From the IMG/VR virus record IMGVR_UViG_3300010367_000012, positions 20,856 through 84,855 of that record: a stretch of DNA of 64,000 bases; one strand, given 5' to 3'. The notes beneath the pieces were generated by a model. The model ran no database searches. It was not told where the DNA came from and was given only the letters and a program-made list of their open reading frames with translations. Source of the stretch: a virus. How positions within the stretch are numbered: the first letter of the stretch is position 1; each line of letters opens with the position of its first letter. Both the position numbers and the translations under genes were made by a program. Positions 19,446 to 36,832 of this stretch are shown one piece after another.

Positions 19446-20027
19446 TTAGTCTCGCAATCCTGCATCAAAACTGTCCTGAAGGGCCTGTGTGGCTCTGTGA
19501 GGCTTTACTGTGCGCTCTAGGTACTCGTAGGTCTCCTTGTTCCAGAGAGCGTCCATATAGGCGTTGTGAGCCCCTGTAGCCTGCTCTGGGACTCTTGGGT
19601 TGCCCAGTCTCATGATCTCGGACTTCAGATCGTTCGTATACATGGGGAAACCAGAAGGAAGATCGATCATGCGCCCGAAAAGCTGACATAGGGCTACATG
19701 GTCATAGGCTGAGTAATAGGCCCACAGTTCTGGATTAGGAGTATCGAGCACGAAATGCTTTACGTCTTCCGCAATTTCATCCTTGTGCTTGACAGAGTCA
19801 TAATCCAGATGTCCGTGAGTAAGTGCAACACCATCTTCGGTCATCGTATAAGGAAGAGAAGGCACTACATTCTGTCTTAGCCACGGATGGAGGAAAATAT
19901 CCTTCATAAGAGAGTAATCGAAATTGACTCTGTAGAGTCCCTTTCCGTCTTCTCTTACCATTCCGATACTGATGAGGCGGATTGTAGAGCCATTCTCAAG
20001 GAATTCTGTATCGTAGTAGATTTTCAT
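19446..20027 (-). CDS. DEDDh 3'-5' exoribonuclease (Rv2179c/RNase AS-like)
   Basis: YYDTEF...LISIGMV...WAYYSAYDHVALCQLFG.MIDLP..FP...HNAYMDA. Confidence 0.85.
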   Translation of the reverse strand: MKIYYDTEFLENGSTIRLISIGMVREDGKGLYRVNFDYSLMKDIFLHPWLRQNVVPSLPYTMTEDGVALTHGHLDYDSVKHKDEIAEDVKHFVLDTPNPELWAYYSAYDHVALCQLFGRMIDLPSGFPMYTNDLKSEIMRLGNPRVPEQATGAHNAYMDALWNKETYEYLERTVKPHRATQALQDSFDAGLRD

Positions 20028-20188
20028 TACTCAGGATTCTTCCAGTTCTTCAGAGTTTCCTTATTACGATTGGATGTAACGAGTGCTCCACGCTTGTTGT
20101 AGAGGTACCAGCGCTTTGTTTTCTTGTTGAAGCGGAGATACATACCCTTCTGGGTTTCTTCGCGCTCTCCCCAGTCTTCATCTGCCAT
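20027..20188 (-). CDS. small protein (53 aa, missed by the ORF track)
   Basis: MADEDWGEREETQKGMYLRFNKKTKRWYLYNKRGALVTSNRNKETLKNWKNPE; overlaps both neighbours. Confidence 0.65.
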   Translation of the reverse strand: MADEDWGEREETQKGMYLRFNKKTKRWYLYNKRGALVTSNRNKETLKNWKNPE

Positions 20189-20702
20189 TGAGATTAGCCT
20201 TCCATTCTTCGATTTCTTCGAGATGGTCTCTTGTAATACCTGTTTGAGGGGAAATTATGCGGATTCCACTGTGTGGAGCGCAGTTTTCCTCAATCCAGTC
20301 TCTGTCTTTGCGTCCAACTTCGTCATCTAGCCACAAAAATGGGATTCCAGGACGATTTTCGTTCATCCATTCGGCCACACGCTTGGTTTTCCAGTACAAA
20401 CCTTCCTTATTCCAGTGATCTCTGTCAATCCAGTCGATAACTGGGAGCTTAGGAAGACCAATATGGCAGCCAACCCATTCATCTGCTTCGAATTCCCATG
20501 TAGTTGCCCAGATAAGTTCCCCGCCAAGTGCCAGCAGATCAGGCCCGTGAGTGGGGTTCAGCCACAATCTGAAGCCCTTTGTGCTGGGGGAGCTAGCTGG
20601 GAACGCTCTATGGGTTTCGTAGCCTTCTGGACGCCTTGTAGCCTTTGCCGCGTAGGGGTTCAAGGGTCCGTCAACGTCCAGAAGGATAGCGAATTCATTC
20701 AT
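20178..20702 (-). CDS. HAD-family phosphatase (Swiss-army-knife RNA-repair type)
   Basis: LLDVDGPLN (DxD motif I), WATTW, YWK, FLWLDDE. Confidence 0.8.
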   Translation of the reverse strand: MNEFAILLDVDGPLNPYAAKATRRPEGYETHRAFPASSPSTKGFRLWLNPTHGPDLLALGGELIWATTWEFEADEWVGCHIGLPKLPVIDWIDRDHWNKEGLYWKTKRVAEWMNENRPGIPFLWLDDEVGRKDRDWIEENCAPHSGIRIISPQTGITRDHLEEIEEWKANLNGR

Positions 20703-26659: not shown

Positions 26660-26707
26660 CGTATAATTTGATAAATTAACAAACAGCTCTTCTTTGAAGA
26701 GCCTTAT

Positions 26708-26779
26708 TCCCCTGTAGCTCAACGGCAGAGCAGTCGACTGTTAATCGACCGGTTGTTGGTTCGAATCCAGCCGGGGGAG
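26708..26779 (+). tRNA. tRNA-Asn(GTT)
   Basis: gtcga-ct GTT aa-tcgac. Confidence 0.93.
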
Positions 26780-26804
26780 CTTGTGCCGTAAGGCACACGA
26801 GCAT

Positions 26805-26956
26805 TGACAGCGATGCGTAGTTGAGAGATACTTCATACAAGGGAAACCGCATGTGAAGGTTCAAATCCTTCCGGCCCGACTCTTCGGGACGTAGCTCAAC
26901 TGGATAGAGCAGTGGTAAATATAAAAGCACTTTCAACGCCCTTTTCTAGCTGTCAA
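26805..26956 (+). ncRNA. Y RNA 1 (YrlA-like, with permuted tRNA module)
   Basis: Terminal stem ttgacagc/gctgtcaa with CGATGCGTAG ... CGCCCTTTTCTAG; internal T arm (gaagg TTCAAAT ccttc), loop-closed acceptor-like stem, then D arm (gctc aactggata gagc). Confidence 0.85.
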
Positions 26957-26966
26957 AACAACTTAA

Positions 26967-27078
26967 TAGCCGATGCGTAGACTTGGGTTACTTCGCAACC
27001 AAATTATATGCGGCCCTTCGGTTCGATTCCAGGGTCAATGGGCTGGTGCCCTTTCCTAAGTCGCCTCTTTCTAGGCTA
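26967..27078 (+). ncRNA. Y RNA 2
   Basis: tagcCGATGCGTAG gacttggg TTACTTC ... cctaagtc GCCTCTTTCTAG gcta; internal T-arm-like GGTTCGATTCC. Confidence 0.8.
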
Positions 27079-27094
27079 ACAATTTAACAAGCTT

Positions 27095-27169
27095 TACCCG
27101 ATGTGCAGGCAACAGTTACTTCTTCAATTATGGTGAAAACAAAGCACTGTAGCCGTTTTTTCTAGGGTA
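27095..27169 (+). ncRNA. Y RNA 3 (minimal, no tRNA module)
   Basis: taccCGATGTGCAG gcaacag TTACTTC ... AAGCA ctgtagc CGTTTTTTCTAG ggta. Confidence 0.75.
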
Positions 27170-27180
27170 TTTATTTTTAC

Positions 27181-27328
27181 GAGTTCCGATGCGTAGTTGG
27201 GGAGTTACTTCTAATTTCCTGCTAAGAAAAAGTTACGGGTTCGAATCCCGTTGCGTCCACTCCTGGGCGTATGGTGTAATTGGCAACACTAAAGAAACCA
27301 CGCTTCACGACGCCTTTTCTAGGAACTC
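27181..27328 (+). ncRNA. Y RNA 4 (YrlA-like, with permuted tRNA module)
   Basis: gagttcCGATGCGTAG ... CGCCTTTTCTAG gaactc; anticodon-like hairpin, T arm acggg TTCGAAT cccgt, closed acceptor-like stem, D arm gtg taattggcaa cac. Confidence 0.85.
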
Positions 27329-27338
27329 AATTTTTGAT

Positions 27339-27372
27339 ACCCTCCGTATTCCGATACTGGAGGGTTTTATTT
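27339..27372 (+). terminator. intrinsic terminator between the Y RNA array and the TROVE gene
   Basis: accctcc-gtattccgatac-tggagggt followed by tttatttt. Confidence 0.6.
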
Positions 27373-27405
27373 TAACTAATGGCGTACCACAACAAGGAGG
27401 ATGGA

Positions 27406-28986
27406 ATGGCTAAGTTCAACAAGACTGTAAAGACTGGTGTTACTTCCCCAGTAAAGTCCGCTAAGACTGCTCTCAATGAGTCTTTCAAGATGGGCTATGA
27501 GCGTGAGAAGAAGAGTGAGCTGTTCCTTCTTGCCGTTTCTAACTTCGTGGGTCAGGACACTTTCTATGAGAGTGCCCAGAAGCGTGATGACCGATTCGCT
27601 AGCCTTGTTCGTGAGGTTGCGGTTCAGGATCAGGCTTGGATCACCGGTTTCGTCAAGTGGCTTCGTAATGATGCCTTCATGCGCTCTGCGTCCATCGTAG
27701 CGGCTGCTGAGGGTGCCAAGGCACTTCTTGACGCAGGAACCATGAACGGCTCTCCTAGGGGCCTTGTAGCGGCTTCTCTAGCCCGTGCTGACGAGCCTGG
27801 TGAGTTCCTGGCGTACTGGACCAACAAGTTTGGCAAGAGTATCCCTGCTTCTGTAAAGAAGGGTGTTGCTGACGGAGCAAAGCGTCTCTACAACGAGTAT
27901 GGTTTGCTTAAGTACGACACCGATTCCAAGGGATTCCGCTTTGCTGACGTCATTCAGTTGACTCACGCTAAGGCTGGAAATGCTACTCAGAACTCTTTGT
28001 TCAAGTATGCTCTTGACCGCCGTTACGGAAATGACGCTGTTCCTGCTGAGTTGAACATGGTGAGCACTCGTGCTAACCTGATGTCTGCTCCTGTAGAGAA
28101 GCGTAAGGCTCTCATTGGTACTGCTGTTGGTCGAGACACGCTCAAGACTGCTGGTATTACCTGGGAAGCTCTTTCCGGATGGCTTCAGGGTCCGATGGAT
28201 AAGCAGGCTTGGGAAGCTGTTATTCCTAACATGGGTTACATGGCATTGCTGCGTAATCTCCGCAACTTCGTAGAGGCTGGTGTATCCAATGAGGTTCTTA
28301 AGGGCGTACTGGCAACACTGTCTGACGCTGGGCAGGTTTCTCGAAGCAAGCAGTTCCCATTCCGATTCCTTGCGGCCTATCAGGCTAACAAGGGAAATCT
28401 GAAGATTGCTGCTGCTCTTGAGGAAGCACTTGAGCACTCCCTTAGCAATGTTCCGTCTCTGACTGGACGTACGCTAATCCTGGTTGACCGCTCAGGTTCT
28501 ATGTTTCAGACTCACCAGAATGACCGTGAGTTGACCATGGCTGATAAGGCTGCTATCTTCGGTTCTGCGCTTGCGCTTCGTGCTGAGGATGCTGACTTGG
28601 TTCAGTTCGGTTCTGCATGGGGTGGACGTAAGCCTTACGAGGCTGTAAACTTCCGTCAGGGAGATTCACTGCTTCCTATGCTTGACAAGTTCCGTGACAT
28701 GGGTGGAACTGACACTCAGGGTGCCGTTCGCGGTAGCTTCAAGGGTCATGACCGCGTTATCATCATCACTGATGAGCAGTACAACGGTTACGGTGGCGAT
28801 CCTCTTTCTGCTGTTCCTGTGAACACTCCGGTGTACACCTGGAACTTGGAAGGGTATCGTGTCGGTCAGAGTCAGTCTGGTTCTAAGAAGCGTCACACCT
28901 TCGGTGGACTTACTGACAAGGGATTCGAGATGATTCCTCTCATCGAGATGGGTCAGTCTCAGAAGTGGCCTTGGGAGAAGAAGTGA
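27406..28986 (+). CDS. rsr: Ro60/Rsr TROVE-domain + vWA ribonucleoprotein
   Basis: ELFLLAVSNF..QDTFYES, LRNDAFMRS, LLKYD, DVIQLTHAK, TWEALSG, MGYMALLRNLRN, SKQFPFRFLAAY, LILVDRSGSM (MIDAS), IIITDEQ, WNLEGY; AAGGAGG SD before ATG 27406. Confidence 0.93.
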   Translation: MAKFNKTVKTGVTSPVKSAKTALNESFKMGYEREKKSELFLLAVSNFVGQDTFYESAQKRDDRFASLVREVAVQDQAWITGFVKWLRNDAFMRSASIVAAAEGAKALLDAGTMNGSPRGLVAASLARADEPGEFLAYWTNKFGKSIPASVKKGVADGAKRLYNEYGLLKYDTDSKGFRFADVIQLTHAKAGNATQNSLFKYALDRRYGNDAVPAELNMVSTRANLMSAPVEKRKALIGTAVGRDTLKTAGITWEALSGWLQGPMDKQAWEAVIPNMGYMALLRNLRNFVEAGVSNEVLKGVLATLSDAGQVSRSKQFPFRFLAAYQANKGNLKIAAALEEALEHSLSNVPSLTGRTLILVDRSGSMFQTHQNDRELTMADKAAIFGSALALRAEDADLVQFGSAWGGRKPYEAVNFRQGDSLLPMLDKFRDMGGTDTQGAVRGSFKGHDRVIIITDEQYNGYGGDPLSAVPVNTPVYTWNLEGYRVGQSQSGSKKRHTFGGLTDKGFEMIPLIEMGQSQKWPWEKK

Positions 28987-30503: not shown

Positions 30504-31286
30504 ATGTTTGGTCGTAAGAAGAAGACGAACGATTCGCTTACGGTTCTCAAGAGCATTACTCTTCAGAATCAGGCTAACTTTCAGCAGGTTTCGCTTGATA
30601 AGTCTCACGTTTCTCTTGTGAAGACTCAGGAGGCTGCTAAGGTTTCGCTTACTAAGCGAGGAATGGCAGGAAAGAAGTTTGCAGTCGGCATTATCGTGGA
30701 TAACTCTGGTTCTATGGGTCCGTGGGGATTCAATTTCTACAACAAGGGTTATGTGCAGACGCTGACTGAGTTTGCTCTGGGCTATGCCTTTGAGGTGGAC
30801 ACGGATGGTCTGATCCCGGTTGGTGTCTTTGGAGATGGCTTCCAGTGGGCTTCTGAGGACCTTACACAGGACAACTACAAGGGTTTCGTAGCCTCTCAGG
30901 GCTGGAACGGCAACGGTGGCGGTACGAACACTGGTGGCGCTCTGGAGAAGGTTCAGGAGCTGTTTGACCACTCTGAGGATCTTAACCTCATTATCGTTGT
31001 TACTGACGGTATGCCGAATAGCAAGTCGCACGTTATTCAGCAGCTTGAGCTTATGTCTCGTAAGCCTTATGTTGTCAAGTGGCTTATTGTTGGTGATGAC
31101 GCTGAGGCACTGAAGTTCGGTAAGCACATTGACGATAACCTTGCTGGTCTTGTTGACAATGTTGACACCAAGAACTACACTGGTAAGGACCTTGCAAAGC
31201 TGACTCCTGAGAAGTTTGCTGAGGACATGTCCGACGAGCTTGACACGTATGAGGTTGCAGCAAGGGACAAGGGTATTCTTAAGTAA
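30504..31286 (+). CDS. vWA-domain protein (Ter stress-cluster type)
   Basis: IIVDNSGSM MIDAS, DTDG.IPV..F, GGGTN, IVVTDG; GGAGG SD. Confidence 0.85.
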   Translation: MFGRKKKTNDSLTVLKSITLQNQANFQQVSLDKSHVSLVKTQEAAKVSLTKRGMAGKKFAVGIIVDNSGSMGPWGFNFYNKGYVQTLTEFALGYAFEVDTDGLIPVGVFGDGFQWASEDLTQDNYKGFVASQGWNGNGGGTNTGGALEKVQELFDHSEDLNLIIVVTDGMPNSKSHVIQQLELMSRKPYVVKWLIVGDDAEALKFGKHIDDNLAGLVDNVDTKNYTGKDLAKLTPEKFAEDMSDELDTYEVAARDKGILK

Positions 31287-32515: not shown

Positions 32516-32593
32516 GGGGCTGGAAGGTTTCGACGTTGGCGAAAGCCGCACGCGGAGCACCAGCGGACCTGGGTTCGATTCCCAGCAGCTCCA
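32516..32593 (+). ncRNA. mini-tmRNA: tRNA-like domain only, no tag reading frame
   Basis: 5' GGGGCTG-GAAGGTTTCGAC and 3' GGAC-CTGGG-TTCGATT-CCCAG-CAGCTCC-A are tmRNA end signatures; G3:U70; P2 cgttgg/ccagcg closes only about 20 nt. Confidence 0.8.
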
Positions 32594-32595
32594 CT

Positions 32596-32672
32596 GGTGC
32601 CGGACCTAGATCACATGGCGTGGTAGCGCTCTGCAAAAGCGTTGGTTCGGGGTTCGATTCCCCTCGGTACCT
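32596..32672 (+). tRNA. tRNA-Cys(GCA)
   Basis: gcgct-ct GCA aa-agcgt; U73; atypical D arm. Confidence 0.8.
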
Positions 32673-32676
32673 CTTT

Positions 32677-32762
32677 GGAAACTTGGCTGAGATGGCTTAA
32701 GGTGCTCGACTGCTAATCGAGTGAAGGTAACACTTCCACGGGTTCGAATCCCGTAGTTTCCG
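32677..32762 (+). tRNA. tRNA-Ser(GCT)
   Basis: ctcga-ct GCT aa-tcgag; long variable arm; G73. Confidence 0.92.
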
Positions 32763-32767
32763 CGCAT

Positions 32768-35432: not shown

Positions 35433-35798
35433 ATGACAAACTTCACTACGAAAGATTCTGGATACAGAGAACAATATTCTACGGGTATGCAGCGGGATAC
35501 ACAGGATGGGAAAGCACGGTTTGACTTGCTGTTCCCTTTGGATGTACCCTACTCAGACCAGTTCTTCACACGGATTGCTGAATTGATGACCCGTGGTGCT
35601 GAGAAGTACTATGAGCGTAACTGGGAGAAGGCTATAACTAAGGAAGAAATATCGCGCTTTCGTTCATCGGCTGCACGACATTTCTTTCAATGGATGTCTG
35701 GTGATACTGAAGAAGACCATGCTTCCGCTGTGGTATTTAATCTGCTAGCTTATGAGACCACAGTTTACAAGATAAGCCAACAGGAGGAAGAACAATGA
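35433..35798 (+). CDS. dATP/dGTP diphosphohydrolase N-terminal-domain (DUF5664-like) protein
   Basis: TGMQRD..GKARFDLL, GAEKY..RNWEK, S.ARH, EDHASAVVFN; ATG 35433 in leaderless geometry. Confidence 0.8.
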   Translation: MTNFTTKDSGYREQYSTGMQRDTQDGKARFDLLFPLDVPYSDQFFTRIAELMTRGAEKYYERNWEKAITKEEISRFRSSAARHFFQWMSGDTEEDHASAVVFNLLAYETTVYKISQQEEEQ

Positions 35799-36832
35799 AG
35801 CTGTACGATTTGTTCGGTTATCGAGACTATATGCAGATGCTTGACGAAGGGTATGTGCGAGAGAACTTCCACCCTGAGCTTGATCTGCGTATCATCAACT
35901 ACACGGAGAAGGCACAGTACGACAACGAGTGGAACAAGGTAACTGCTAGGTGCCGTGGCCTTATTATCAGTTCTGATGGCACGATCATTGCACGGCCTTT
36001 CGATAAGTTCCTGAACTACGGGCAGAACCAGGCTGACGTACTTCTTATGGATGAGCCTGTAGTAGTAACCGATAAGATGGATGGTTCACTTGGTATCCTG
36101 TGGAGTTACAAGGGTCAGCAGGGTATTGCGACGCGCGGTTCCTTTACGTCGGAGCAGGCTATTCACGCTACTGCGCTCTGGAAGGAGAAGTACAACTTCC
36201 AGGTAGCTCCGATGTGGACTTATATGTTTGAGATCGTCTATCCTCAGAATCGTATTGTGCTCAACTATGGTGACATGGATGAGCTGGTATTGCTCGGTGT
36301 ACGAGACATTGAGGAAGGCGATGTGTTGCTTCCTAACGAGGTTGTAACGTGGCGTGGTCCTAGGACTCAGACCTTCTCCTACGGGACGCTCAGAGAGGCC
36401 CTAGCGGCTCCTCAGCGGCCTAATGCAGAGGGCTTCGTCGTCTACTTCCCGAACCTTGACTACCGAATCAAGGTGAAGCAGGAGGATTACGTAGCGCTAC
36501 ACAAGATCGTTACAGGCTTGACAAAGCGTCGTGTCTGGGAGAACCTTGTTGAAGGTCAGACTCTAGTAGATCTTATAGAGCTTGTTCCTGATGAGTGGCA
36601 CGCGTGGCTGAAGCGGACATACAATGAGCTGATGTTTGAGTTTGCAGGTATCAAGCAGAAGGTGGCCGTTTCCTACCTTGCCGTGGAACAGGATCTCCCT
36701 ATTGGATTTACTCGTAAAGAGTTCGCAGAAAGAGTAAAGGATATGCCTTATCGGAGTATGCTGTTCGGTATCCTGGACGGTAAGGACATCAATCCTGCGG
36801 TCTGGAAGCTGATTAAACCTAGCGCAGAGTAA
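35795..36832 (+). CDS. ATP-dependent RNA ligase (T4 Rnl1-like)
   Basis: Motif I KMDGSLG; CRGLI..ARPFDKFLNY; FEIVYP.NRIV..Y; EGFVV; RIKVK..DY. Confidence 0.92.
   Translation: MKLYDLFGYRDYMQMLDEGYVRENFHPELDLRIINYTEKAQYDNEWNKVTARCRGLIISSDGTIIARPFDKFLNYGQNQADVLLMDEPVVVTDKMDGSLGILWSYKGQQGIATRGSFTSEQAIHATALWKEKYNFQVAPMWTYMFEIVYPQNRIVLNYGDMDELVLLGVRDIEEGDVLLPNEVVTWRGPRTQTFSYGTLREALAAPQRPNAEGFVVYFPNLDYRIKVKQEDYVALHKIVTGLTKRRVWENLVEGQTLVDLIELVPDEWHAWLKRTYNELMFEFAGIKQKVAVSYLAVEQDLPIGFTRKEFAERVKDMPYRSMLFGILDGKDINPAVWKLIKPSAE

What the first reader, a model, noticed from the sequence alone, without database searches (positions are those of the whole stretch)
26805..28986. Tandem array of four Y-RNA-like genes directly upstream of a phage Ro60/TROVE gene
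Seen: four adjacent elements (26805-26956, 26967-27078, 27095-27169, 27181-27328) share the frame [stem]-CGATG(C/T)G(T/C)AG-[stem2]-(G/T)(A/T)TACTTC ... [stem2']-CG(C/T)YYYTTCTAG-[stem']. Both stems differ in sequence between copies yet stay paired (compensatory changes). Their interiors differ: a complete permuted T+acceptor+D tRNA mimic (1 and 4), T-arm only (2) or none (3). They sit in the tRNA transcript and are separated from rsr by a terminator. Established: bacterial Rsr binds Y RNAs, and YrlA RNAs mimic tRNA with this permuted topology. Inference: one phage Ro60 with four interchangeable RNA adaptors forms a modular RNP system, recruiting different partners or acting as decoys for tRNA-targeting defences. 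I know of no described phage locus with four diversified Y RNAs, but could not search.
Basis: partly seen in the sequence, partly recalled or inferred. Interest (0 to 1): 0.9.

Follow-up and report, generated by a model that had tools for sequence, protein, structure and literature searches.

The report
Four Y RNAs beside phage Ro60
A soil phage of the Streptomyces-phage BRock type carries four small structured RNA genes, two of them scrambled tRNA look-alikes, directly in front of its Ro60 RNA-binding protein gene. They are very probably the protein's partner "Y RNAs", a known kind of particle, here as a large, conserved set that relatives leave unannotated or label as tRNA.

Summary
Four adjacent elements (26804-26956, 26967-27078, 27095-27169, 27181-27328, + strand) share one "handle": closing stem, CGAUG(C/U)G(U/C)AG, second stem, (A/U)UACUUC, then the second stem's 3' strand, CG..UUUCUAG and the closing stem's 3' strand. 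The motif occurs four times in the 112-kb phage genome, all here.

- **Stems:** both differ between copies yet pair, and both covary across relatives.
- **Interiors:** elements 1 and 4 carry T arm, closed 7-bp acceptor-like stem and D arm. Element 2 has a T-arm-like hairpin. Element 3 has only a mini-hairpin.
- **Neighbours:** an intrinsic terminator and a TROVE+vWA Ro60 gene (27406-28986) follow.
- **Conservation:** 13 other phage genomes or viral contigs keep the same ordered array of three to five classes. This window keeps only a hairpin remnant of a fifth.
- **Wider spread:** more distant Ro60-encoding actinophage-like phages and contigs mostly show one to five such RNAs.

These are Y RNAs of the YrlA/YrlB type, but divergent: Rfam YrlA scores 26.6 and 22.7 bits against a threshold of 69. 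Phage Ro60 with Y RNAs is already published (mycobacteriophages 2014; Thermus phage phiLo 2025), so the novelty lies in number, class conservation and module variety. Ro60 binding, expression and function are untested. This scan noted similar arrays in other phages before.

The parts
26708..26780 (+). tRNA-Asn(GUU), the last genuine tRNA before the array. It ends 23 nt before element 1.
   Evidence: ARAGORN; Rfam tRNA 65.3 bits.
26781..26802 (+). Remnant of a fifth Y-like element (class E0). Only its closing stem is left (UGUGCC/GGCACA), capped by a GUAA loop.
   Evidence: The alignment with GiJojo, Alone3 and pSt2308 shows a full E0 element at this position. The hairpin folds at -13.2 kcal/mol, z = -3.9. 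The close relative L115 has no trace of it.
26804..26956 (+). Y RNA 1 (class E1, YrlA-like). Handle 26804-26834 and 26930-26956; closing helix; T arm 26855-26871; acceptor-like 7-bp stem 26872-26878/26885-26891 with loop ACUCUU; D arm 26894-26910.
   Evidence: Rfam YrlA 26.6 bits, full model length, below the threshold of 69. In 14 orthologs, 38 pairs are predicted, 21 with compensatory change and 98.6% of cells paired; 0 of 500 shuffles reach this.
26967..27078 (+). Y RNA 2 (class E2, YrlB-like). Handle plus a T-arm-like hairpin (GGUUCGAUUCC) and a second hairpin.
   Evidence: Consensus fold of 6 orthologs gives 25 pairs, 9 with compensatory change. The element-1 model matches at 28.7 bits, E 1.4e-4, full length.
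27095..27169 (+). Y RNA 3 (class E3, minimal). Handle plus a 4-bp mini-hairpin.
   Evidence: In 14 orthologs the consensus fold recovers the closing stem, the GA/UC pairs and the second stem, with 5 compensatory pairs. The element-1 model matches at 32.8 bits, E 1.4e-5. The mini-hairpin is read by eye from the alignment.
27181..27328 (+). Y RNA 4 (class E4). Handle, anticodon-arm-like hairpin (27215-27229), T arm 27235-27251, acceptor-like stem 27252-27258/27265-27271, D arm. All tRNA arms are present in permuted order.
   Evidence: Rfam YrlA 22.7 bits, partial. Consensus fold of 6 orthologs gives 38 pairs, 18 with compensatory change. The element-1 model matches at 60.3 bits, E 2.7e-12.
27187..27260 (+). 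False tRNA-Ser(GCU) call inside Y RNA 4.
   Evidence: Called by ARAGORN and by Rfam tRNA at 30.8 bits against a threshold of 29. The supposed acceptor pairing with the invariant GAUGCG drops to 4 of 7 in the pSt2308 and BRock orthologs, while the internal acceptor hairpin covaries (read from the alignment). It has no long variable arm, unlike the phage's real tRNA-Ser at 32677-32763.
27335..27375 (+). Intrinsic terminator (hairpin plus U tract) between the array and the Ro60 gene.
   Evidence: Folds at -15.5 kcal/mol, z = -3.3. Hairpins of different sequence followed by U tracts sit at the same place in GiJojo and L115.
27394..27400 (+). Shine-Dalgarno AAGGAGG of the Ro60 gene.
   Evidence: Read directly from the sequence. 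It lies 5 nt before the ATG at 27406.
27406..28986 (+). Ro60/Rsr ortholog (526 aa): TROVE plus vWA with MIDAS D-R-S-G-S.
   Evidence: Pfam TROVE 57.4 bits, E 1.9e-15. PHROG 850 'RNA-binding protein', E 2.2e-51, full length. PDB 9KOP/9L5Y (Thermus phage phiLo Ro60) E 9e-24, and 2NVO (Deinococcus Rsr) E 1e-3. Relatives annotate it as 'Ro-like RNA binding protein'.

Best explanation
The region is a tandem array of four Y-RNA genes: two YrlA-like (elements 1 and 4) and two YrlB-like or minimal (elements 2 and 3). They serve the phage's own Ro60 protein, which is encoded immediately downstream.

**Architecture (shown here).** Each RNA has the same docking handle. It consists of a closing stem, a GA/UC step with a bulged UA, an internal loop carrying CGAUGCGUAG on the 5' side and CG..UUU on the 3' side, a second stem, and a single-stranded (A/U)UACUUC. 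Each RNA carries a different inner module.

**Mechanism (inferred).**
1. The RNAs are transcribed with the preceding tRNAs as one precursor that ends at the terminator at 27335-27375.
2. They are cut out at the short A/U-rich spacers.
3. Ro60 binds the handle, as Ro60 binds the 5' strand of the bulged helix of known Y RNAs.
4. The tRNA-like modules of elements 1 and 4 fold like the T, acceptor and D parts of tRNA. With their 7-bp acceptor stems followed by A-C, they may be cut by RNase P and receive CCA, as shown for Mycobacterium smegmatis YrlA.
5. The RNPs most likely couple Ro60 to host exoribonucleases such as PNPase or to tRNA-handling enzymes. This would serve quality control, decay or repair of structured RNA, above all tRNA, during infection.
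6. Five ancient, separately conserved classes suggest that the RNAs are not redundant.
For: **Link to Ro60.** The same ordered array (E0 to E4, then terminator, then Ro60) occurs in 13 other related phage genomes or viral contigs. Every locus from the IMG/VR pattern scan with two or more motif copies also holds a Ro60 gene.

**Structure.**
- Element-1 orthologs: 21 of 38 pairs show compensatory change, 98.6% of cells are paired and no shuffle reaches this. Slid controls give 41-52% paired.
- Across 84 model matches, the closing stem is 96.2% paired and the second stem 93.9% paired, with every pair covarying. This alignment was fitted to the model.
- A model trained on element-1 orthologs finds elements 4, 3 and 2 full-length at E 3e-12 to 1e-4. 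Its next-best window matches are partial tRNA hits at E 0.17 or worse.

**Family resemblance.**
- Rfam YrlA matches elements 1 and 4 in the right order of T, acceptor and D.
- Sister lineages carry CGAAG, the core of the published GNCGAAN0-1G motif, in the place of CGAUG (motif from PMC4201824).
- In M. smegmatis, YrlA and YrlB lie upstream of rsr, come from one precursor and bind Rsr. YrlA is cut by RNase P and gets CCA (PMC4201824).
- Thermus phage Ro60 binds two upstream Yrl RNAs and forms complexes with host PNPase (PMC12135203).

**Non-redundancy.** The variable helix strands are 65% identical within a class across genomes, but 32% identical between classes within a genome.

**Context.** An Rnl1-type RNA ligase, a HAD_SAK_2 repair phosphatase and an Rv2179c-like 3'-5' exoribonuclease flank the tRNA island.
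Against: - No direct evidence that the RNAs accumulate as discrete species or bind Ro60.
- The public RNA-library contigs that touch the locus are sparse, cover the CDS and the array alike, and could be DNA carry-over.
- Rfam YrlA scores are far below the gathering threshold (26.6 and 22.7 against 69). The strict GNCGAAN0-1G motif is not met in this window, because U replaces the second A.
- Rfam's metazoan Y_RNA model gives no match at E up to 10.
- The terminator leaves about 30 nt before the Ro60 start. How Ro60 itself is transcribed is therefore unclear, and a cis-regulatory role cannot be excluded.
- All functional statements rest on analogy.
Confidence: 0.85

Rival explanations
1. The array is mainly a cis-acting leader of the Ro60 mRNA. 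Repeated Ro60-binding sites would let the protein feed back on terminator read-through or on stability of its own transcript. The elements would then not be stable trans-acting RNAs.
For: The array lies directly upstream of Ro60 on the same strand. The terminator ends about 30 nt before the start codon, which leaves no room for a separate promoter, so Ro60 expression seems to need read-through. A conserved CGUACCAC..AAG(G/U)AGG leader precedes Ro60 in all relatives.
Against: In Arthrobacter phage Atuin the matching elements lie mainly downstream of Ro60, interleaved with a tRNA. In M. smegmatis and Thermus phage phiLo, RNAs at the same position bind Ro60: immunoprecipitated processed RNAs in M. 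smegmatis, in-vitro transcripts in phiLo. Full tRNA-like modules with covarying arms are not needed for a leader. The two roles do not exclude each other.
Confidence: 0.07
2. The elements are structured RNAs of the tRNA operon that work without Ro60. Examples would be processing or stability punctuation, decoys for tRNA-binding host factors, or partners of another phage protein. Their adjacency to Ro60 would be inherited synteny.
For: They sit inside a 30-tRNA island and contain tRNA parts. No binding data exist.
Against: The handle motif co-occurs with Ro60 across lineages whose Ro60 proteins are only 37-50% identical and whose gene neighbourhoods differ. No copy occurs elsewhere in this genome. 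The handle resembles the published Ro60-contact motif.
Confidence: 0.05
3. The elements are decaying tRNA genes or tRNA dimers, and element 4 is a real tRNA-Ser(GCU), as ARAGORN and the GenBank annotations of relatives say.
For: ARAGORN calls tRNA-Ser at 27187-27260 and Rfam tRNA scores 30.8 bits against a threshold of 29. GiJojo and Alone3 annotate a tRNA at this position.
Against: The non-tRNA handle is the most conserved part and covaries. Element 3 has no tRNA part at all. The supposed acceptor pairing of the 'tRNA-Ser' is lost in the pSt2308 and BRock orthologs, while the permuted acceptor hairpin covaries. The anticodon-like loop varies among orthologs: GCU here, GUU in L115, an 8-nt loop in GiJojo. 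A bacterial tRNA-Ser needs a long variable arm, which is absent.
Confidence: 0.03

Closest known systems
Mycobacterium smegmatis YrlA and YrlB with Rsr (Chen et al. 2014, RNA 20:1715, PMC4201824)
   Same: - The host clade is actinobacterial.
- Several Y RNAs lie upstream of the Ro60 ortholog on the same strand and come from one precursor.
- One RNA has T arm, 7-bp closed acceptor stem and D arm in that order (as elements 1 and 4 here).
- One RNA has only a T-arm-like hairpin (as element 2 here).
- A 5' CGA-containing motif sits in the Ro60-binding stem.
   Different: - Four RNAs here (five in relatives), against two.
- The handle reads CGAUG with a bulged UA on the 3' strand and has an extra invariant UACUUC.
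- Element 4 also includes an anticodon-arm-like hairpin, so the break in the tRNA circle lies between the D and anticodon arms, not in the anticodon loop.
- The locus is phage-encoded and embedded in a tRNA island.
- Rfam YrlA threshold is not reached.
Thermus phage phiLo Ro60 with Yrl1 and Yrl2 (NAR 2025, PMC12135203; PDB 9KOP, 9L5Y)
   Same: A phage Ro60 with Y-like RNAs encoded just upstream. This Ro60 is the best solved-structure match of the window's protein (E 9e-24). The published model is recruitment of host PNPase.
   Different: - Two RNAs, identified there through a CGAA motif. The passages I read do not mention a tRNA-like domain.
- The host and the phage lineage are different.
- Binding is shown there and not here.
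Mycobacteriophage YrlA-like RNAs (22 phages in Chen et al. 2014)
   Same: Actinobacteriophages that encode Ro60 and a tRNA-mimicking Y RNA within 4 kb on the same strand.
   Different: That search reported only YrlA-model matches, 355 RNAs for 276 genomes. Handle-only and T-arm-only paralogs, ordered multi-class arrays and Streptomyces phages are not described. I could not read their supplementary table.
Deinococcus radiodurans Yrn1/Yrn2 and Salmonella YrlA/YrlB in the rsr-rtcBA RNA repair operon
   Same: Several small RNAs lie next to rsr. The Y RNA tethers Rsr to PNPase (RYPER). There is a genomic link to RNA repair enzymes.
   Different: - These are cellular, stress-induced loci.
- Yrn1 has a different arm order.
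- Here an Rnl1 ligase, not RtcB, is in the neighbourhood, and it lies about 7 kb away.

Membership tests
YrlA-type bacterial/phage Y RNA (Rfam RF02553; Chen et al. 2014) | Encoded within 4 kb of a Ro60 ortholog on the same strand | tested here: met
   All four elements lie 78-602 nt upstream of the Ro60 start at 27406, on the + strand.
YrlA-type bacterial/phage Y RNA (Rfam RF02553; Chen et al. 2014) | T arm, closed acceptor-like stem and D arm in this order inside the Y stem | tested here: met
   Elements 1 and 4 meet this, with covariation in all arms except the invariant D stem of element 1. Elements 2 and 3 do not, so they are YrlB-like or minimal.
YrlA-type bacterial/phage Y RNA (Rfam RF02553; Chen et al. 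2014) | 5' motif GNCGAAN0-1G | tested here: not met
   The window has NCGAUG, with U in place of the second A. The core CGA is invariant. Sister phage lineages carry CGAAG at the same position in the same frame, so this is a one-base variant.
YrlA-type bacterial/phage Y RNA (Rfam RF02553; Chen et al. 2014) | Rfam gathering score (69 bits) | tested here: not met
   26.6 bits for element 1 and 22.7 bits for element 4. Relatives in other Ro60 phages score 29-47.5 bits.
YrlA-type bacterial/phage Y RNA (Rfam RF02553; Chen et al. 2014) | [quoted passage not shown] | not testable with these tools
   Needs RIP, EMSA, and modification and cleavage assays.
Ro60/Rsr protein (TROVE + vWA) | TROVE domain above the Pfam cut-off | tested here: met
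   PF05731 at 57.4 bits against a cut-off of 23.
Ro60/Rsr protein (TROVE + vWA) | C-terminal vWA domain with MIDAS DxSxS | tested here: met
   D-R-S-G-S is read in the alignment to 9L5Y at residues about 359-363. Pfam VWA_2 scores only 21.3 bits, below its cut-off of 27.
Ro60/Rsr protein (TROVE + vWA) | Sequence homology to Ro60 proteins of solved ring structure | tested here: met
   9KOP/9L5Y at E 9e-24 over residues 29-517; 2NVO at E 1e-3. The ring fold itself was not modelled.
Genuine tRNA-Ser(GCU) (for 27187-27260) | Conserved 7-bp acceptor pairing and the long variable arm of bacterial tRNA-Ser | tested here: not met
   Acceptor pairing falls to 4 of 7 in the pSt2308 and BRock orthologs, read from the alignment. 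There is no long variable arm. The anticodon-like loop is not conserved.
Metazoan Y RNA (Rfam RF00019) | Match to the covariance model | tested here: not met
   No match at E up to 10 in 26700-27420. The resemblance of CGAUGCGUAG..UUACUUC to the 5' strand of human Y RNAs is recalled from memory only.

The most novel reading that the evidence does not exclude
The five conserved classes would form a programmable adaptor set. One phage Ro60 ring would be loaded with different Y RNAs whose modules (full tRNA mimic, T arm only, bare handle) each recruit a different host or phage partner. Candidate partners are PNPase, RNase P or the CCA enzyme, and RNA repair enzymes. Alternatively the modules would soak up tRNA-targeting defence nucleases. 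The RNP would then protect or police the phage's 30-tRNA island during infection. Arrays of one to five such RNAs would be the rule for Ro60-encoding actinophages.
Probability: 0.25. Interest if true: 0.75.

Novelty: new variant of a known kind. Interest (0 to 1): 0.5.

Why it matters
What Y RNAs do for bacterial and phage Ro60 is still largely open. This phage clade offers, in isolated and culturable phages (BRock, Alone3, GiJojo) with tractable Streptomyces hosts, a natural series of four or five Y RNAs. They share one handle but differ in their modules, and each is conserved as its own class. That makes "what does each module recruit?" directly testable by deletion, pull-down and binding assays.

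There is also a practical point for annotation. Element 4 is labelled tRNA-Ser or tRNA-Arg in GenBank records of relatives, and a similar tRNA call in another Ro60 phage looks suspect. The other elements are unannotated, and Rfam's YrlA model misses all of them at its threshold.

The kind of system itself is already known, so the surprise for a specialist is moderate.

Tried and rejected
- **Model from element-3 orthologs (R1).** It found only element 3 in the window, at 89.8 bits. It was too class-specific to define the family, so I replaced it with the element-1 model R2.
- **One MAFFT alignment of all 27 elements.** The ends aligned, but the 3' strand of the second stem was out of register between classes. 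I therefore tested pairing with duplex energies and with class-wise alignments.
- **Public RNA runs.** Only a few low-depth contigs of 150-300 nt touch the Ro60 CDS and elements 1 to 3. This is not evidence for discrete RNAs.
- **Promoter scan.** TTGACA-17-GATACT at 26804-26832 overlaps the handle of element 1. A start there would remove the Ro60-binding strand, so I treat it as coincidental, though the two Ts before the stem are invariant.
- **Terminator scan.** It missed the terminator at 27335-27375. Folding confirmed it.
- **Literature gaps.** The supplementary tables of Chen et al. 2014 are not held, and the 2020 Annual Review (PMC10870794) is not held. I could not see how many Y RNAs per phage were reported.
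- **Single-copy hits of the IMG/VR pattern scan.** About 100 loci have no Ro60 gene in the fetched flank. They are in the number expected by chance and were ignored.
- **Not attempted.** I did not model the Ro60 structure or search for bacterial donors of the array.
Full report
**What is there.** The window is part of a complete 112,476-bp virus record from IMG/VR. Public soil and rhizosphere metagenome runs hold the same sequence. Its nearest named relatives are the Streptomyces phages GiJojo, Alone3, LuckySocke, pSt2308 and BRock, at 69-77% nucleotide identity over the locus. Their Ro60 proteins are 62-66% identical to the window's.

Positions 22.1-33.7 kb hold a same-strand island of about 30 tRNA genes and a miniature tmRNA-like gene. 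An intrinsic terminator at 27335-27375 follows, then a Shine-Dalgarno sequence and a 526-codon gene at 27406-28986. That gene has these matches:
- Pfam TROVE, 57.4 bits.
- PHROG 850, E 2e-51.
- The crystallised Ro60 of Thermus phage phiLo, E 9e-24, and Deinococcus Rsr, E 1e-3.
- A vWA MIDAS motif D-R-S-G-S, read in the alignment.

**Is the repeat real?** Yes. A strict search for the 5' motif, the 3' ..CTAG motif and flanking complementarity finds exactly four sites in the window. The 5' pattern occurs four times in the whole genome, all here and all on one strand, with none in the reversed-pattern control.

The shared frame, read 5' to 3', is:
1. A closing stem S1 of 5-8 bp that ends in an invariant C:G.
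2. GA, which pairs with UC of the 3' UUUCUAG and leaves UA bulged.
3. An internal loop, UGCG(U/C)A on the 5' side and G..UUU on the 3' side.
4. A second stem S2 of 8-9 bp. It opens with the G of (U/C)AG paired to the first C of the 3' CG.. segment.
5. A single-stranded (A/U)UACUUC.

On 27 elements from six genomes, S1 forms 5.7 of 7 pairs with its own partner and 2.9 of 7 with the strand of another class. S2 duplexes average -10.7 kcal/mol cognate and -4.2 non-cognate.

**Relatives and covariation.** Aligning the tRNA-Asn-to-Ro60 interval with four named phages shows the same elements in the same order. GiJojo, Alone3 and pSt2308 have a fifth element (E0) in front. The window keeps only E0's closing stem, capped by GUAA, at 26781-26802.

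A pattern scan of IMG/VR brought in more genomes. Arrays of three to five frames precede Ro60 in 13 genomes or contigs other than the window's. Every locus with two or more motif copies also holds a Ro60 gene.

| Set tested | Result |
|---|---|
| Element-1 orthologs, 14 genomes | 38 pairs, 21 with compensatory change; 98.6% of cells paired against 85.6% in shuffles; 0 of 500 shuffles as high; slid controls 41-52% |
| Element-4 orthologs, 6 genomes | 18 of 38 pairs with compensatory change |
| Element-2 orthologs, 6 genomes | 9 of 25 pairs with compensatory change |
| Element-3 orthologs, 14 genomes | 5 of 13 pairs with compensatory change |

A covariance model built from the element-1 orthologs gave these window matches:
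- Element 4: 60.3 bits, E 3e-12, full length.
- Element 3: 32.8 bits, E 1e-5, full length.
- Element 2: 28.7 bits, E 1e-4, full length.
- The next window matches are partial tRNA hits at E 0.17 or worse.

On the 84 matches aligned to that model, S1 is 96.2% paired and S2 93.9% paired, and every pair covaries. That alignment was fitted to the model, which favours pairing.

**The modules.**
- **Element 1** has a closing helix, T arm, a 7-bp acceptor-like stem closed by the loop ACUCUU, and a D arm. This is the YrlA arrangement. Rfam YrlA aligns to it over its full length, but at only 26.6 bits against a threshold of 69.
- **Element 4** has an anticodon-arm-like hairpin, a variable stretch, T arm, acceptor-like stem and D arm. 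All tRNA arms are present, but the break in the circle lies between the D and anticodon arms. ARAGORN and Rfam's tRNA model therefore call a tRNA-Ser(GCU) at 27187-27260, and GenBank relatives annotate a tRNA-Ser or tRNA-Arg there. This call is false. The supposed acceptor uses the invariant GAUGCG and loses pairing in the pSt2308 and BRock orthologs, while the internal acceptor hairpin covaries. The anticodon-like loop varies among orthologs. A tRNA-Ser long arm is missing.
- **Element 2** has a T-arm-like hairpin and a second hairpin. In the GiJojo group the same class has only a hairpin.
- **Element 3** has a 4-bp mini-hairpin, which I read from the alignment.

Modules vary over evolutionary time while the handles persist. 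Element 4 is full-length in six genomes and reduced to a T arm in most of the others.

The classes are old and separately conserved. Their variable helix strands are 65% identical within a class across genomes, but 32% identical between classes within a genome.

**Beyond this clade.** The handle also occurs in tandem next to Ro60 genes that are only 37-50% identical, often as CGAAG in place of CGAUG:
- Five 5' signatures in L088, four in L024, and three each in L034 and L072.
- With the element-1 model: several matches mainly downstream of Ro60 in Arthrobacter phage Atuin, five in L068, and three each in L114, L048 and L072 (L088 also has three).
- One or two in the Gordonia phages and in the large Streptomyces phages Satis and Kela. 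L006 gave none.

CGAAG is the core of the GNCGAAN0-1G motif that Chen et al. 2014 proposed as the Rsr contact. The window's CGAUG is therefore a one-base variant of a known Ro60-binding element.

**What is known.**
- Chen et al. 2014 (PMC4201824) reported 355 YrlA-like RNAs near Ro60 in 254 bacteria and 22 phages.
- The same paper showed that M. smegmatis YrlA and YrlB lie upstream of rsr, come from one precursor and bind Rsr. YrlA has a 7-bp acceptor stem, is cut by RNase P and receives CCA.
- A 2025 paper (PMC12135203) showed that Thermus phage phiLo Ro60 binds two upstream Y-like RNAs and forms complexes with host PNPase.
- I found no paper on Y RNAs in Streptomyces phages, or on arrays of this size in phages.
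- Earlier notes of this scan describe arrays of four to nine handle-sharing RNAs beside Ro60-like genes in other phages. I did not check them.

**How it probably works.**

Shown:
- The handle and the modules are conserved, covarying structures.
- They are tied to Ro60 across lineages.

Inferred by analogy:
- The RNAs are co-transcribed with the tRNAs, released from the precursor, and bound by Ro60 at the handle.
- Elements 1 and 4 may be processed like tRNAs.
- The RNPs may couple Ro60 to exoribonucleases or tRNA-handling enzymes.

The surroundings fit an RNA repair or quality-control role. An Rnl1-type ligase, a HAD_SAK_2 phosphatase and an Rv2179c-like exoribonuclease flank the island. In phage Kela an RNA ligase gene sits directly before Ro60.

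Expression evidence is lacking. The public RNA-library contigs that touch the locus are too sparse to interpret.

**Verdict.** The functional reading is untested. This is a divergent, multi-paralog variant of a published kind of system, which makes it of moderate interest. It is also useful for annotation and as an experimental entry point.

Noticed in passing
window 27187-27260; L001 3372-3446; L002 3356-3429; L010 2108-2179: tRNA finders call a tRNA inside Y RNA 4, and GenBank records of relatives carry it as tRNA-Arg(cct) in GiJojo and tRNA-Ser(gct) in Alone3. In Gordonia phage VanLee the annotated tRNA-Arg(tct) lies inside a full-length match of the element-1 model (2107-2244, 54.3 bits), so it may be a similar mis-call.
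   Followed up: partly
window 26781-26802: A hairpin UGUGCC-GUAA-GGCACA is the leftover closing stem of a fifth Y-like element. That element is intact in GiJojo, Alone3, pSt2308, L005, L051, L119 and L125, and is wholly absent in L115.
   Followed up: yes
window 32516-32596: Rfam tmRNA matches at 65.5 bits over only 81 nt, with about 300 model positions skipped. This is a tRNA-like tmRNA end pair without a tag-coding domain.
   Followed up: no
window 26804-26832: TTGACA-17 nt-GATACT, a promoter-like site, coincides with the closing stem and the AUACUUC of element 1. The two Ts before the predicted stem are invariant in 14 genomes. Only class E1 has GAUACU where the other classes mostly have GUUACU.
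   Followed up: partly
window 27381-27405 and the same place in L001-L005, L115: A conserved leader, CGUACCAC..AAG(G/U)AGG, lies between the terminator and the Ro60 start. There is no room for a promoter, so how Ro60 is transcribed is unclear.
   Followed up: no
L009 (Arthrobacter phage Atuin) 4246-4832: Here the Y-like elements lie mainly downstream of Ro60. Four model matches (24-124 bits) are interleaved with tRNA-Thr, and one more lies upstream at 1944-2017.
   Followed up: partly
window 19449-20027(-), 20181-20702(-), 35795-36829(+); L012 1729-2481: RNA-handling genes flank the tRNA island: an Rv2179c-like 3'-5' exoribonuclease, a HAD_SAK_2 repair phosphatase and an Rnl1-type RNA ligase. 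In phage Kela an RNA ligase gene directly precedes Ro60.
   Followed up: partly
window 30504-31283: A second vWA protein (vWA-TerF-like, E 7.5e-16) is encoded within the tRNA island, 1.5 kb after Ro60.
   Followed up: no
L001 3005-3560: In the GiJojo group the pentamer CUUGA precedes elements 1, 2 and 4 and the terminator hairpin. It could be a processing signal. It is not conserved in the window.
   Followed up: no
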